A stretch of 63,799 bases of DNA, counting the filler, from Octopus bimaculoides (lineage: Eukaryota), in the NCBI RefSeq assembly GCF_001194135.2. It is 6 parts of 5 records of this genome, joined end to end, with 100 filler letters (N's around TTAATTAATTAA, not from the genome) between each part and the next. Parts side by side here need not be neighbours in the genome. Positions count along the whole stretch, not along the records: positions 1 to 18,306 come from NC_068981.1; positions 18,407 to 30,296 come from NC_068981.1; positions 30,397 to 39,817 come from NC_068983.1; positions 39,918 to 56,201 come from NC_068985.1; positions 56,302 to 62,623 come from NC_068995.1; 1 more part is not named here. One strand, 5' to 3'. Made by a program: the position numbers and the translations under genes. This document shows positions 1,142 to 58,692 of this stretch, piece after piece; the first letter of the stretch is position 1, and each line of letters starts with the position of its first letter. Under the pieces are notes generated by a model that was not told where the DNA came from, searched no databases, and saw only the letters and a program-made list of their open reading frames with translations.

Positions 1142-1575
1142 CAAAGTTTAAAATTTTTACATTTAAGAAAGAGATTTGACGCCGATGTCCATATCAATGT
1201 ATTTAATCCGATGTTAACATTTCTGTATACAGCTATATTTGACCACTAAGTATAAGTCAAATATATCAGTTGCCAAACACTTCATCAGGAATAACTTTCT
1301 TTAGAACAAAAAAACAAAAAACAAAAAAACCCATGCAGTATGGATTTTAAATTTTGAATTTTTGATTTTGTTCGATTAATTCATTATGTGTTTTTTTTTG
1401 TTTTTTTTTGTTCTAAAGAAAGTTATTCCTGATGAAGTGTATGGCAACTGATATATTTGACTTATACTTAGTGGTCAAATATAGCTGTATACAGAAATGT
1501 TAACATCGGATTAAATACATTGATATGGACATCGGCGTCAAATCTCTTTCTTAAATGTAAAAATTTAAAACTTTG
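1142..1575. repeat. Foldback inverted repeat (arms about 185 bp, spacer about 60 bp)
   Basis: 1142-1330 is the near-perfect reverse complement of 1391-1575; TA-repeat flanks. Confidence 0.9.
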
Positions 1576-1653
1576 TATATATATATATATATATATATAT
1601 ATATATATATATATATATATATATATATATATATATATATGTATGTATGTATA

Positions 1654-1810
1654 TGACAGGCTTCTTTCAGTTTCCACCAACCAAATCCACTCACAAGTCT
1701 TTGGCCGGTCCGAGTCTATAGTAGAAGACACTTGCCCAAGGTGCCACGCAGTGGGACTGAATCCGGAATCATATGGTTGGGAAGCAAGCTTCTCACCACA
1801 CAGCCAGGCC
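1654..1810 (-). mobile_element. SINE family B 5' half (tRNA head plus CORE-like domain)
   Basis: The minus strand reads tggctgtgtggtgagaagcttgc...ggcaccttgggcaagtgtcttctactatag. Confidence 0.75.
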
Positions 1811-2059
1811 AGCATCACAACATCCACATATAGTGTGGAAGTAGAAATACTGTAGCTGTCGTTAGTCGCAGTACCGTCGTATTTGAGTAGTTTTATGATC
1901 AAAGGTTTTTTAACTGTTTCCATTCGTCTTTTTTCTAGTCTGTACAGAATTGAGGACCACATTATCAAAACTAATTTTTGTAAAGATGGTAGAGTGAAAT
2001 CTGAGGCAGAAAGAGATGGCTATTTCTAATTGAAGTTCTCTCGTTGACACCTGGAGATT

Positions 2060-2315
2060 AGTTACATACTGTGGTATATGTATGCATATATACGTGCAGA
2101 TTTGTATGTTTCGTTTTACGTATGTCTTCTCATGCATATATTTGCATGCTCATACATACTTAAATGATAAATTTCTGGTAAGTTTTACAGATATTTACAG
2201 TTCCAGAGATAGCTTGGGTCTGTAGTCTTTGAATCAGCTTTCTCCTTTCTGGTTTTGAGAAGCCTAATTTCTCACGATTGATATTTAGGCGGTGAGCTAT
2301 ATATCCCAGTGTCCC
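2060..2315 (-). mobile_element. 5'-truncated RLE-type non-LTR retrotransposon C-terminus and 3' UTR
   Basis: GTLGYIAHRLNINREKLGFSKPERRKLIQRLQTQAISGTVNICKTYQKF is homologous to the 33700 copy; (CATA)n lies at its 5' junction. Confidence 0.6.
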
Positions 2316-2564
2316 ATGTATGTATGTATGTATGTATGTATGTATGTCTGTATGTATGTAGGTACGTATATATGTATGTATGTGTTTGTGTCTGAGTGTT
2401 ATTCTTATATGCATGACCATTCATATATAAACATATATATATATATATATATATATATACCTACATACATTATATAAACACACACACACGCACACACATA
2501 CACACGCGCGCGCACACATACACGCACACATACACGCACACATGCATATGTATGTGAAAAAACG

Positions 2565-2835
2565 CATGGCTTAGTGGTACGAGTGTTGCATTTACATTCG
2601 CTTGATCGTGGGTTCGATTCCCAGACCGGCGGAGCGTTCTGTTTTTCGGAAAAACACTTCGTCTTCCGTTGATCCAGTCCACTCATCTATAGAATGAGTA
2701 GCCCTTCGTTAGACTCATGTGCCCTTCAGTGGGTATATTGGCCTGTCCGCCTAGCCAGTGAGGGGACATCTTTCAAAAACTACAACGTGAGAAAACGCAT
2801 TGTAACTAGCGGTGTATAACGACATCCGATTGTCT
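2565..2835 (+). mobile_element. SINE family C (tRNA head, CORE-like domain)
   Basis: A-box tggcttagtgg, B-box gggttcgattccc, then ccagtccactca...aatgagta as in 29805 and 52041. Confidence 0.65.
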
Positions 2836-2906
2836 GGTTGATATATATATATATATATATGTTAATTCTCTATATGAAGTATTAACAGTAACTGCACGAT
2901 AAAGTG

Positions 2907-55155: not shown

Positions 55156-56389
55156 TAACACAGCGTTGTCGCAACAGCTTGATTGTTGTTACCTTTGTGT
55201 TGGTGTAGTTGAAGCCTAGATCAACCTTGATGAAATGGACCTGTAATAAAGGGCAACACAGACTAGGGCCGTCTTAAAGCACTGGTACATTTGGTAGTAA
55301 TCTAAGGGCCTCATGTGTCTAGTGGTCTATTCTGATCTATGTCTGTTGTGTCTAACTGTCAAAAACTATTGGACCTAGTGCATTGATTTGACCGAGGGTG
55401 GAGCTCTAATGCAGCTAAGACTGCCCTGGCCCAGACGTAGCCATTCTATTTGTTAAGGGGTATCTAGGACTCTGTTATCTAAGATACCTTCCCGTCCCTT
55501 TCTTCAATCAGGTAAGATCTGATTTCGACAAAATTTAGTTGCTATTTTCAGCACATTGAAGCGACCACATAAGGAATCCGTTATCAACTGGTAATTGTTG
55601 TTGCGGTCTTCATTGCTTTTGTCTATCATTATTGCAAGTATTACCTGCTGCTGCTGTGGTTATTGTTGTTATCGTTATACGATGTTAGATAAAACATTGT
55701 GAAACATTTTTGCAAGTAATTATCCCCACCCTCGATACAGTCCAGTGAGTCATCTGTGTACACCTCAAATACGATTTCTCATATTCAACTCAAGCTGCTG
55801 CTGCTGCCGTTGTCGTTGTTTGCTTTGCTCGACACTGTAGCTAAATGCTTTCACCGGAAATAGAGATGCATTTCATTTAAAGTTTCTTCCTTTCTTTTTC
55901 TTCGTTCTTCCTTTCTGTCCTTCTTTCTTTCTTTCTTTCTTTCTTTCTTTCTAATTTCTTTTTCTTTGTAAACAATCGTAGACATTGCACTCCTGTTTCA
56001 ATGTGACAGCTTATCACATTTGATGTATAATATATATGTAAATGTGTGTGTGTGTGGATAGGTATATTTGCAAGCATGCATGTATGTAGGTAGGTATTAA
56101 CATATATATGTGTGTGCGTGCGTGCGTGCATGTGTGTGTGTGTTATAAATTAGAAAGAACAGTAAAAGATTGCCATTATAGTACTCGGAGTATATATATA
56201 TNNNNNNNNNNNNNNNNNNNNNNNNNNNNNNNNNNNNNNNNNNNNTTAATTAATTAANNNNNNNNNNNNNNNNNNNNNNNNNNNNNNNNNNNNNNNNNNN
56301 NATATATATATATATATATATATATATATATAGATATATACATGGCTGGTGAAGTTCTATTTTCTTTCCTCGATAGTATTTAACGGTCT

Positions 56390-56660
56390 TGCTTGGCATT
56401 TTATCTTGCGAAGGACCCGCTCCTAAGTTCTTTTATTCGCTCTGCTTATTTTGAGAATGCGTCTAAAATACAATGGTTCGAATGCTCCAATTTTCGTTTT
56501 CCCAATCTTCTTACTAATCCTAAAATTCAGCAATAGCGAACCCTTCAAGAAGTACTCACAGCCTGATAATCTCCTATGCAACTTCAGTATTGATGGATTA
56601 TCCTAATTCAACAAAGATCAAGAAGAGAAACACGGTGCGTACCGCAAGCAAAATCATCGA
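56390..56660 (-). mobile_element. RTE-clade LINE fragment
   Basis: KIGAFEPLYFRRILKISRANKRT*ERVLRKI resembles I.AFEMW.YRRIL.ISW..K.TNEEVL. Confidence 0.45.
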
Positions 56661-56704
56661 TTAAGTTTCCCTTAAAATTATGAATGATGATAACAGACTG
56701 ATAT

Positions 56705-57110
56705 CAAATTTTGGCACAAGGCCAACAAATTCTGGGGACCCAGTGTTCAACTGGCACTTATTTTATCGACCCCGAAGAAGATGTAAGATAAAATCGACAT
56801 CAACAGAATTTGAACTAAGAATGTAAGGATGGACAATATGCTGCCAAGCATTATGCCCGGCGTGTTAACGATTCCCCCAATTTGACACCTTTGACTGATG
56901 AATATATACAGATTTTAAATATTGGCACAAGGCCAGCAATATCGAGGGAAAAGGTTAAGTCGATTACGTCGACCCCTAGTGTTCAGATGGTATTTGTTCT
57001 ATCGACCCACGAATGGATGAAAAGCAAAGTCAACTTCGGCGGAAATTGAACTCAAAACGTAAAGACAGACGAAATACCGCCCGACGTGTTAACGATTCTG
57101 CCAGCACGCC
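56705..57110 (-). mobile_element. Two adjacent SINE family A copies
   Basis: Two ggcacaaggcca...gaattt/aattgaact blocks in tandem. Confidence 0.75.
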
Positions 57111-57149
57111 ACCTATGGATGATGATCATATATCAGCATAGAATGTAAC

Positions 57150-57560
57150 TTTAGCTGTGTGCTAAGAAGCTTGCTTCCCAACCACATGATTCCGGGTTCA
57201 GTCCCACTACATGGTATCTTGGGAAGGTCTCTCCTACTATAGTTTCGAGCCGAAAAGCCTTGCGAGTAGATTTGGTAGACAGAAACTGGAAGATGCCCGT
57301 CGTATATATATATATATATATATATATATATATATATAGTGTGTGTGTGTGTGTCTGTGTTTGTCCTCCCATCGTCGCTTGACAACCGATGCTGGTGTGT
57401 TTACGTTCCCATAACTTAGCGGTTCTGGAAAGTAACCGATAGAATAAGTGCTAAGCTTACAACGAATAAGACTTCGGATCGCTTTGTTCGACTAAGAAAA
57501 AAAAAACTTTTAGGCGGTGCTCCAGCATAACCGCAGTCAAATGATTGGAACAAGTGAAAG
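57150..57560 (+). mobile_element. Full-length SINE family B
   Basis: gctgtgtgctaagaagcttgc...gggttcagtcccact...ggcggtgctccagcataaccgcagtcaaatga. Confidence 0.8.
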
Positions 57561-58533
57561 AACGAAATGTGATAATGACACTTATATCACATTATATTGC
57601 AATGGTTTTACTTTTTCTTCTCGAGAGCGGGTGACTGTTACAACGTGAACGGCAAAACCGTTGGTCTCCCATGGCGCAACCCCAAAATATTCAGTATGCC
57701 ACCACATCAGTGGAAGGTATTACACATGTGATTAGCAGCTGCCATTACAAACAAACACACACACACAACACACACATACACACCTTGAAGCGTGCACGGA
57801 AAGTTGTAAATTATTAATTAATTCAGGAAATGCCATTTTTAAAGCTTCTGTGTGTATGTATTTGTATGTGTATGGTTTTCTGTGTATCTGTGTGAGTGTG
57901 TGTGTGTGTGTGTGTGTGTGTGTGTGTGTGTGTGTGTGTGTGTGTGTGTGTATTGGACATGTGTGTTTACTTTTTCACATCCATTTACATTTCAACAAGA
58001 AGTCAATATTATGTCGGCAACTATTTACATGAGCACATGTAAACATACGAGTTTGCAACATCTGTGTATATATGTANNNNNNNNNNNNNNNNNNNNNNNN
58101 NNNNNNNNNNNNNNNNNNNNNNNNNNNNNNNNNNNNNNNNNNNNNNNNNNNNNNNNNNNNNNNNNNNNNNNNNNNNNNNNNNNNNNNNNNNNNNNNNNNN
58201 NNNNNNNNNNNNNNNNNNNNNNNNNNNNNNNNNNNNNNNNNNNNNNNNNNNNNNNNNNNNNNNNNNNNNNNNNNNNNNNNNNNNNNNNNNNNNNNNNNNN
58301 NNNNNNNNNNNNNNNNNNNNNNNNNNNNNNNNNNNNNNNNNNNNNNNNNNNNNNNNNNNNNNNNNNNNNNNNNNNNNNNNNNNNNNTATATATATATATA
58401 TATATATATATATATATATATGTGTGAGTGTGTGTGTGTGTGAGTGTGTGTGTATACACAATAGAGTAAGCACATAAATTTGAACCAAGGTGGAAAAAAT
58501 CGTACTCGAATACAGGAGGTAGAGTAATATGCT

Positions 58534-58692
58534 TTATTAATAAAACTACAAAGACATCAGCAAAGCTGTTACTCAGAGTATCACGTTCCCCCTTTGTCGG
58601 ACAGTTTTAGTTTCTCAAACCAAAGCTGTCCGACGAACGGGAACATGAAACTCTGAGTAACAGCTTTTGTGATGTTTTTGCAGCTTAATTAA
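58534..58692. repeat. 159-bp palindrome made of two inverted HHR copies
   Basis: aaagctgttactcagagtatcacgttccc...gtcggacag pairs with ctgtccgacgaacgggaacatgaaactctgagtaacagcttt. Confidence 0.85.
58622..58667 (+). ncRNA. Minimal hammerhead (U4C core)
   Basis: aaagctgt CCGACGA acg-ggaa-cat GAAA ctctgag UA acagcttt. 8-bp stem I, near-palindromic stem III ACTC-T-GAGT, one stem II mismatch. Confidence 0.65.

What the first reader, a model, noticed from the sequence alone, without database searches (positions are those of the whole stretch)
1142..58692. Five MITE-like palindromes are inverted hammerhead-ribozyme repeats, all reading outward
Seen: the inverted repeats at 1142-1575, 2907-3834, 4047-4170, 39348-39533 and 58534-58692 differ in sequence. 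Each arm that is readable carries an HHR core or half-core (CUGANGA-like, GAAA, palindromic or paired stem III, UH site) reading away from the centre. Quality varies: intact at 3059 and 58622, damaged at 4072, weak at 1429 and 39394. Established: Penelope-like elements carry minimal HHRs in their pseudo-LTRs and often form inverted pseudo-LTR junctions. Inference: these are not DNA-transposon MITEs but a class of ORF-less palindromic Penelope derivatives. Transcription in either direction would yield a long hairpin with a ribozyme, giving dsRNA for ADAR or Dicer, or rod-like and possibly circular RNAs resembling retrozymes. I have not seen this described as a class in cephalopods.
Basis: partly seen in the sequence, partly recalled or inferred. 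Interest (0 to 1): 0.8.

Follow-up and report, generated by a model that had tools for sequence, protein, structure and literature searches.

The report
Penelope fold-back insertion stumps with hammerheads
The mirror-image repeats are real and most carry a hammerhead ribozyme motif facing outward, but they are likely the ordinary stumps left when a Penelope-type jumping gene inserts and stops early, not a new self-copying class of element.

Summary
All five palindromes exist. Full type-I hammerhead (HHR) motifs read outward in P1 (1142, both arms), P2 (2907) and P5 (58534), with 0 of 3000 shuffles as good. P3 (4043) is damaged (11 of 3000). P4 (39320) has only a half-site and is unproven. A sixth palindrome (41611) was missed. 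None has an inward HHR.

They are not DNA MITEs, but I find no sign of a separate class. Family sequence runs on beyond one arm only (a Penelope 'tail'; about 95 bp at P1, 58 bp at P3). Other copies of the P1, P2, P3 and P6 families are solo or fold back elsewhere. An unrelated ORF-bearing Penelope (L030) has the same outward two-HHR palindrome at its 5' end. Opposite-strand HHR pairs 100-700 bp apart are already published for Schistosoma (PMC4209133), and this scan noted the same thing before in other genomes.

Outward orientation follows from two reverse transcriptions meeting at their truncated ends. One sense HHR per strand argues against retrozyme-like circles. Unusual leftovers: a 55-58 nt stem II in two families, and long tails. 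No arm was linked by sequence to an ORF. Verdict: new members of a known kind.

The parts
1040..1133 (-). P1 one-sided extension ('tail', about 95 bp) outside the left arm, next to (TA)n
   Evidence: Same high-copy family as the arm: 3 of 16 listed contig pieces cross 1138 with >=31 letters on each side; a second terminus at 1134 abuts (TA)n in 8 (X1) and 3 (X14) contigs and 10 RNA reads
1142..1575 (.). P1 palindrome: 163-bp arms, 98.8% identical, unique spacer about 1327-1390
1206..1292 (-). P1 left-arm type-I HHR motif with 58-nt stem II, reading outward
   Evidence: score 12.3, p 0.005 of 200 shuffles
1425..1511 (+). P1 right-arm type-I HHR motif with 58-nt stem II, reading outward
   Evidence: score 14.3, 0 of 3000 shuffles; stem II folds as a long hairpin
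2862..2906 (-). P2 candidate tail (about 45 bp) between (TA)n and the left arm
   Evidence: absent from the right arm and from the 35257 copy, which end in (TA)n at the same point; family membership of this piece not shown independently
2907..3834 (.). P2 palindrome: 109-bp arms, 100% identical, centre hidden by a 612-N gap
3059..3103 (-). P2 intact type-I HHR motif, outward; predicted to form a double-hammerhead dimer through its palindromic stem III
3985..4042 (-). P3 tail (58 bp), left side only
   Evidence: aligns to 45305-45362, 0 of 2000 shuffles; no match on the right flank
4043..4174 (.). P3 palindrome, 84%; damaged outward HHR motif at 4072-4113(-)
39320..39556 (.). P4 old palindrome, 71%; only 3' half-sites (39400-39411 -, 39465-39476 +); HHR unproven
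41611..41795 (.).
   Evidence: tail 6 of 2000 shuffles; the arms alone fail the half-site filter
58534..58692 (.). P5 palindrome, 82%; intact HHR motif 58622-58667(+), damaged copy 58562-58608(-), both outward
35257..35470 (-). Solo, non-palindromic copy of the P2 family with a full HHR core at 35432-35464, ending in (TA)n
45305..45435 (+). P3-family copy in which only the tail is inverted; intact HHR core at 45366-45400, 5' strand of stem I lost at the junction
27735..27846 (-). Solo copy of the P6 family with a full HHR core and 55-nt stem II
21076..25797 (+). Degraded near-full-length Penelope-like element (RT, Cys linker, GIY-YIG; frameshifts, about 1-kb insert) with an HHR-like motif at about 25732-25776 near its 3' end; no sequence homology to P1-P6
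   Evidence: the motif was read by eye and is below score 7
37125..37830 (+). Second Penelope 3' fragment (GIY-YIG) with a U3-A8 variant HHR motif at 37770-37794 in sense orientation

Best explanation
These palindromes carry outward-facing hammerhead motifs and one-sided tails, and each is likely a one-off stump made when a Penelope-like retrotransposon inserted. Inferred steps: the element's GIY-YIG endonuclease cuts both strands of AT-rich or (TA)n DNA. Its reverse transcriptase starts from both ends at two neighbouring sites of the pLTR RNA, one of which includes the tail. Both copies stop early and are joined at their truncated 5' ends. This forces the sense strand, and so the ribozyme, to point outward in both arms, puts the tail on one side only, and sets a different centre in each copy. 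The ribozyme would be a passenger of the pLTR. In a read-through transcript it is predicted to be paired to its antisense copy, so the stump would give at most a passive hairpin RNA, not a circle. Whether each family's master still encodes an ORF is not shown.
For: Shown here:
(1) One-sided family sequence beyond the arm at P1, P3, probably P6 and P2.
(2) Two alternative termini in the P1 family, at 1134 beside (TA)n and near 1040-1068.
(3) Other fold-back points in other P1-family copies: 1074/1172 (1 contig), 1078/1196 (1 contig), 1243/1243 (4 RNA reads).
(4) 3 of 3 in-window homologs are not palindromes of the same build: solo at 35257 and 27735, tail-only inversion at 45305.
(5) P1's two arms share alleles that are a minority in the family (1215, 1230), as expected if both came from one template.
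(6) ORF-bearing relatives: 14 HHR hits in 12 of 80 loci, 12 on the ORF strand; in 6 close loci the core lies 81-448 nt after the ORF match.
(7) L030 has 125-nt arms, 94% alike and 106 nt apart, with an HHR motif on each arm reading outward and the right arm running into a Penelope N-terminal frame (the right-arm motif read by eye).
(8) Two Penelope 3' ends in the window carry sense HHR-type motifs.
From papers: inverted 5'-truncated copy and 30-40 bp tail (PMC8557442, PMC3846280); cleavage and extension of both strands with two internal start sites, HHR cleavage not needed for insertion in vitro (PMC11167929).
Against: No arm aligns to an ORF-linked pLTR: nothing against the two in-window Penelopes or the 80 loci, and no RT/EN coding sequence beside P1-P6. 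The lay skipped 1302-1420, so whether P1's own centre recurs elsewhere is untested. The three joints rest on 1, 1 and 4 records at 82% likeness, and the 1243 one sits on an internal hairpin. Tails of about 95 and 58 bp exceed the published 30-40 bp. No clean target-site duplication was found. P4 and P5 have no demonstrated tail. Isolated P1 and P5 arms also fail to form the assigned stem I in folding (probability <=0.0003 and <=0.017; P2 0.93-0.96), so the masking argument is only firm for geometry, not activity.
Confidence: 0.78

Rival explanations
1. One reading: the whole palindromes are non-autonomous units that are transcribed as hairpins and re-inserted as palindromes by Penelope proteins, forming multi-copy families with fixed centres.
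For: No ORF link found; the P1 family is high-copy (405 and 195 contig pieces laid); pLTRs suffice to mobilise what lies between them in trans (PMC3846280); a fold-back copy centred at 1243 appears in RNA of both RNA runs and, by loose ends, in contigs of a second species (my reading of the letters).
Against: Every homolog I could compare has a different centre or none; summed contig depth falls from about 85,000 at the short end to about 3,600 at 1287-1299 (divergence and the skipped centre may contribute); an outward pair gives one sense HHR per strand.
Confidence: 0.1
2. Some palindromes arose after insertion or in assembly: a solo Penelope end was duplicated in inverted form by DNA repair, or a short-read assembler mirrored a contig end (most plausible for P2).
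For: P2's arms are 100% identical across a gap; no P2 reads were laid.
Against: P1 and P3-P6 are gap-free with diverged arms (71-99%); tails on one side and tail-only inversions match the Penelope signature.
Confidence: 0.08
3. Some are class II MITEs (TA-flanked, Tc1/mariner-like) that happen to contain or have captured a hammerhead-like sequence.
For: P1 and P2 have near-perfect long inverted arms ending in TA runs; a mariner remnant and a TA-flanked miniature element lie in the window.
Against: Family sequence continues about 95 bp past one P1 'TIR'; solo and tail-only copies exist; palindrome ends score only 9-14 against three in-window inverted-repeat ends (no shuffle control); motifs exceed chance.
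Confidence: 0.04

Closest known systems
Insertion units of endonuclease-positive Penelope-like elements: pLTR, adjacent inverted 5'-truncated copy, one-sided tail (PMC8557442, PMC3846280)
   Same: Inverted terminal copy, tail at one end only, microsatellite context, HHR in the terminal repeat; L030 shows the identical geometry attached to an ORF.
   Different: Here both copies stop inside or just before the pLTR so no ORF is left; tails about 45-95 bp against 30-40 bp published; masters not identified.
Minimal PLE hammerheads, including opposite-strand pairs 100-700 bp apart in Schistosoma mansoni (PMC4209133)
   Same: Type I, palindromic stem III, extra base after A9 in several copies, U3-A8 variant at 37770, predicted dimer for P2, pairs on opposite strands.
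   Different: Stem II spans 55-58 nt in the P1 and P6 families; the longest among 14 hits in ORF-bearing loci was 20 nt. That paper gives neither orientation nor palindromic arms for its pairs in the text I read.
Poseidon element PAc of Anolis carolinensis (PMC11167929)
   Same: Two internal start sites that bound the tail; both strands cut and extended; AT-rich targets.
   Different: Mechanism measured in vitro for PAc, only inferred here; the in-window ORFs have a Cys linker typical of Neptune/Nematis.
Non-LTR retrozymes (PMC7229834; bioRxiv 10.64898/2026.07.22.740005)
   Same: ORF-less, type-I HHR, Penelope-related.
   Different: Retrozymes are head-to-tail tandems with two or more same-strand HHRs that release circles; these are head-to-head with one sense HHR per strand.
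MITEs of class II transposons (PMC8969392)
   Same: Short, ORF-less, inverted ends.
   Different: Asymmetric tail, variable centres, solo copies, no fixed TSD found.

Membership tests
Penelope-like element insertion (EN+ PLE) | Type-I HHR with palindromic stem III in the terminal repeat, sense toward the 3' end | tested here: met
   P1, P2, P5 direct; P3 and P6 via homologs; P4 inconclusive
Penelope-like element insertion (EN+ PLE) | Tail extension at one end only | tested here: met
   P1, P3 and probably P6, candidate at P2; not shown for P4, P5
Penelope-like element insertion (EN+ PLE) | Variable 5' truncation and inversion points among copies | tested here: met
   few records per joint
Penelope-like element insertion (EN+ PLE) | Sequence homology of the arms to the pLTR of an RT + GIY-YIG ORF | tested here: inconclusive
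   No hit to 2 in-window elements or 80 loci from other organisms; own genome not held
Penelope-like element insertion (EN+ PLE) | Target-site duplication of about 8-10 bp | tested here: inconclusive
   Only microsatellite or 7-bp chance-level matches; P1 and P2 lie between (TA)n runs
Hammerhead ribozyme | Self-cleavage at the NUH site | not testable with these tools
   No pile-up of read ends in 51 and 32 RNA reads from other copies, a weak test
Non-LTR retrozyme | Head-to-tail tandem units with two or more same-strand HHRs | tested here: not met
   One sense HHR per strand in each palindrome; P2's gap unseen
Non-LTR retrozyme | Circular RNA | not testable with these tools
   needs RNase R or divergent RT-PCR
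MITE (class II) | Element bounded symmetrically by its TIRs, same ends in all copies | tested here: not met
   P1, P3 family sequence extends past one arm; solo copies exist
MITE (class II) | TIR homology to a transposase-coding element | tested here: inconclusive
   No match to three in-window inverted-repeat ends; no genome-wide library available

The most novel reading that the evidence does not exclude
In octopus, Penelope families (some perhaps ORF-less, with an unusually long-stem-II hammerhead and long tails) have scattered fold-back stumps at about 100 per Mb (6 in 57 kb of called sequence here; one window only), and read-through of them is a major, unrecognised source of long double-stranded RNA for the cephalopod editing and small-RNA machinery, routinely misfiled as MITEs.
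Probability: 0.15. Interest if true: 0.65.

Novelty: new member of a known kind. Interest (0 to 1): 0.27.

Why it matters
Mostly for annotation: such stumps look like MITEs to structure-based finders, yet they are likely retrotransposon ends, which would shift class I/II counts in cephalopod genomes. Tail-only and variable-centre copies are genomic support for the two-start model of Penelope insertion. Two leftovers deserve a look: the 55-58 nt stem II hammerheads, and whether read-through hairpins are edited. I found no paper describing these in cephalopods in 7 full-text searches, but the library lacks most subscription journals, Repbase/Dfam entries were not searchable, and I saw no supplements.

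Tried and rejected
Own genome not held, so no genome-wide descriptor or einverted test.

Rfam: no hammerhead family among 150 of 180 matches shown. P1 motif pattern in metagenome contigs: 0 matches. Penelope relatives in viral contigs: none. blastn of the window against 80 Penelope loci: no hit outside the two ORF regions.

Run search: no RNA holder listed, which is no evidence either way. RNA lay: 51 and 32 reads, none >=95% identical, no start/end pile-ups. Places with A>G/T>C were 7/5 and 3/3 in RNA against 6/4 in DNA contigs, so editing cannot be called. The tool skipped 1302-1420.

An alternative P1 reading (GAUA for GAAA with an 8-bp stem III) was dropped because stem I has one pair. A palindrome-like motif at 1071-1082 was dropped because position 1080 differs in all laid copies. 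Control inverted repeat 7044-7879 has no significant HHR. TSD search was uninformative. Tails for P4 and P5 were not found by comparing flanks. Monomer folds mostly do not give the HHR shape. Lunse et al. 2016 is not held; known only through PMC6765202. Look-ups of earlier findings by place and by sequence gave nothing.
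Full report
Observation. A masked self-comparison confirms all five inverted repeats and adds a sixth: P1 1142-1575 (163-bp arms, 98.8%), P2 2907-3834 (109 bp, 100%, 612 N in the middle), P3 4043-4174 (84%), P4 39320-39556 (71%), P5 58537-58692 (82%), P6 41611-41740 (72%). 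They do not align with each other. The host is likely an octopus: a window peptide is 88% identical over 87 residues to a stretch of an Octopus bimaculoides gene model. This is an inference. No genome is held.

Hammerhead motifs. A strict type-I descriptor gives 2 hits in 63.8 kb, in P2 and P5, both outward. I then used a scored descriptor with features from PMC4209133 (bulge after A9, U3-A8 variant, palindromic stem III) and stem II up to 70 nt, a limit chosen after seeing P1. Outward arms of P1, P2 and P5 beat all 3000 shuffles and P3 is reached by 11 of 3000; with a 40-nt limit P1 drops to 3.8. No inward arm is significant. P4 is not significant as a full motif; one arm has a 3' half-site (49 of 3000) and the other fails. 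P6's arms fail that filter but align to a solo copy at 27735-27846 whose core is complete. Across the window, 6 hits score >=10 against 0.2 in 20 block shuffles: four in P1, P2, P5, one in a P2 homolog, one behind a GIY-YIG fragment. Rfam does not list them (150 of 180 rows seen). Co-folding two P2 motifs gives the double-hammerhead shape through the palindromic stem III; P1 and P5 dimers do not.

Anatomy beyond the arms. P3 has 58 bp on its left that aligns to 45305-45362 (0 of 2000 shuffles). At 45305 this piece is joined directly to the opposite-facing arm, so only the tail is inverted, and the core there is intact. P2 has about 45 bp between (TA)n and its left arm, while its right arm and a solo copy at 35257 stop in (TA)n at the same base. 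P6 shares a right-side extension with its solo copy (6 of 2000). For P1 I laid 4 of 24 listed runs on 1040-1420. 405 and 195 contig pieces from two species were laid. Sequence left of the arm is as deeply covered as the arm, and 3 of 16 listed pieces bridge the arm boundary. Loose ends at 1134 run into (TA)n. Opposite-strand joints occur at 1074/1172, 1078/1196 and 1243/1243, in 1 contig, 1 contig and 4 reads. The tool skipped 1302-1420, so P1's own centre was not tested. Among the 40 variant rows shown (7 hidden), none falls in the GAAA box, the cleavage-site base varies between C and A (both allowed), and position 1206 varies so as to lengthen stem I in a shifted register.

Penelope context. 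The window holds a degraded RT + GIY-YIG element at about 21076-25797 and a second 3' piece at 37125-37830. Both have a Cys linker before the endonuclease, which PMC8557442 gives for Neptune and Nematis; I built no tree. Both carry sense HHR-type motifs near the 3' end (for 37770; by eye for about 25737). In 80 related loci from metagenome contigs, 12 have 14 motif hits, 12 on the ORF strand; two hits lie inside ORFs and are probably chance. L030 is a natural control: 125-nt arms 106 nt apart, an outward motif on each, and the right arm continuing into a frame 37-39% identical to two other Penelope loci. No palindrome arm aligns to any of these, so the link is by architecture, not sequence.

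Mechanism. Shown: outward motifs, one-sided extensions, differing centres, solo copies, microsatellite flanks. From papers: the Anolis PAc protein cuts and extends both strands from two internal start sites that bound the tail, and does not need HHR cleavage to insert (PMC11167929); an inverted 5'-truncated copy and a tail are typical of insertions (PMC8557442, PMC3846280). Inferred: two cDNAs primed from the two ends of one break stop early and join, which forces outward orientation. 'All reading outward' is therefore expected geometry and no sign of selection on a hairpin RNA. Full-length P1 and P5 fold into rods with 92% and 84% of bases paired and the assigned stem I at probability 0, though their isolated arms also rarely form it. 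A circle needs two same-strand ribozymes (PMC7229834; bioRxiv 10.64898/2026.07.22.740005), which these lack. RNA reads from other family copies exist on both strands at low number, including a fold-back, so passive hairpins are possible; editing could not be called.

Comparison and novelty. PMC4209133 already reports minimal HHR pairs 100-700 bp apart on opposite strands in Schistosoma, probably from truncated Penelopes. Penelope expansions in octopus are known (PMC13282606). Earlier notes of this scan reached the same reading in other genomes; I had stated my reading before seeing them and did not test their loci. What differs from what I read: stem II of 55-58 nt in two families and tails up to about 95 bp.

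What I saw of each paper: PMC4209133 parts 1-2 of 4; PMC3846280 parts 1-3 of 5; PMC11167929 parts 1-2 of 4; the bioRxiv preprint part 1 of 5 and passages; passages only of PMC8557442, PMC13282606, PMC8969392, PMC6765202, PMC7229834. No supplements were seen; those of PMC4209133 may hold long-stem variants. HHR numbering is recalled.

Verdict: observation mostly right, Penelope origin likely, separate class and circular RNA not supported. New members of a known kind; interest 0.27.

Noticed in passing
window 41611-41795 and 27735-27846: Sixth palindrome and its solo homolog; a second family with a long (55-nt) stem II hammerhead motif.
   Followed up: partly
window 21076-25797: Degraded near-full-length Penelope-like element with a Cys linker, about 1 kb of simple-repeat-rich insert at 23228-24204, and a 50-bp duplication across a 10-N gap at 25571-25680.
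   Followed up: partly
window 22586-22846: 88% protein identity to 87 residues inside an Octopus bimaculoides exocyst component 1 gene model (P0068): a Penelope piece either exonised or wrongly included in that model.
   Followed up: no
window 39086-39308: About 220-bp element with imperfect 30-bp inverted ends between TA runs, overlapping no HHR hit; looks like a true miniature DNA transposon right beside P4.
   Followed up: partly
window 14374-15208: Mariner-like transposase remnant (Pfam Transposase_1, E 0.0026); inverted repeats at 12371-12641 and 15517-15792 may or may not belong to it.
   Followed up: partly
window 39860-40500: Isolated fragment of eukaryotic large-subunit rRNA (Rfam RF02543, 74.5 bits) next to a gap.
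   Followed up: partly
window 63228-63699: Two overlapping frames that by eye resemble a PIF1/Helitron helicase C-terminus (recalled); no Pfam hit.
   Followed up: partly
window 7044-7879 and 33417-35213: Two further distant inverted-repeat pairs (55 and 82 bp); the first encloses a 12-bp tandem run and has no HHR; the second was not analysed.
   Followed up: partly
window 58700-58790: Short tandem repeat of about 21 bp directly right of P5; could be part of the element or an independent array.
   Followed up: no
L030 2719-5968: ORF-bearing Penelope-like element with a complete 5' fold-back and two outward hammerhead motifs; an ATG at the start of stem II, as described for PAc.
   Followed up: yes
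L010 286-462; L011 169-358: Old fold-backs upstream of Penelope ORFs without a scored HHR hit.
   Followed up: no
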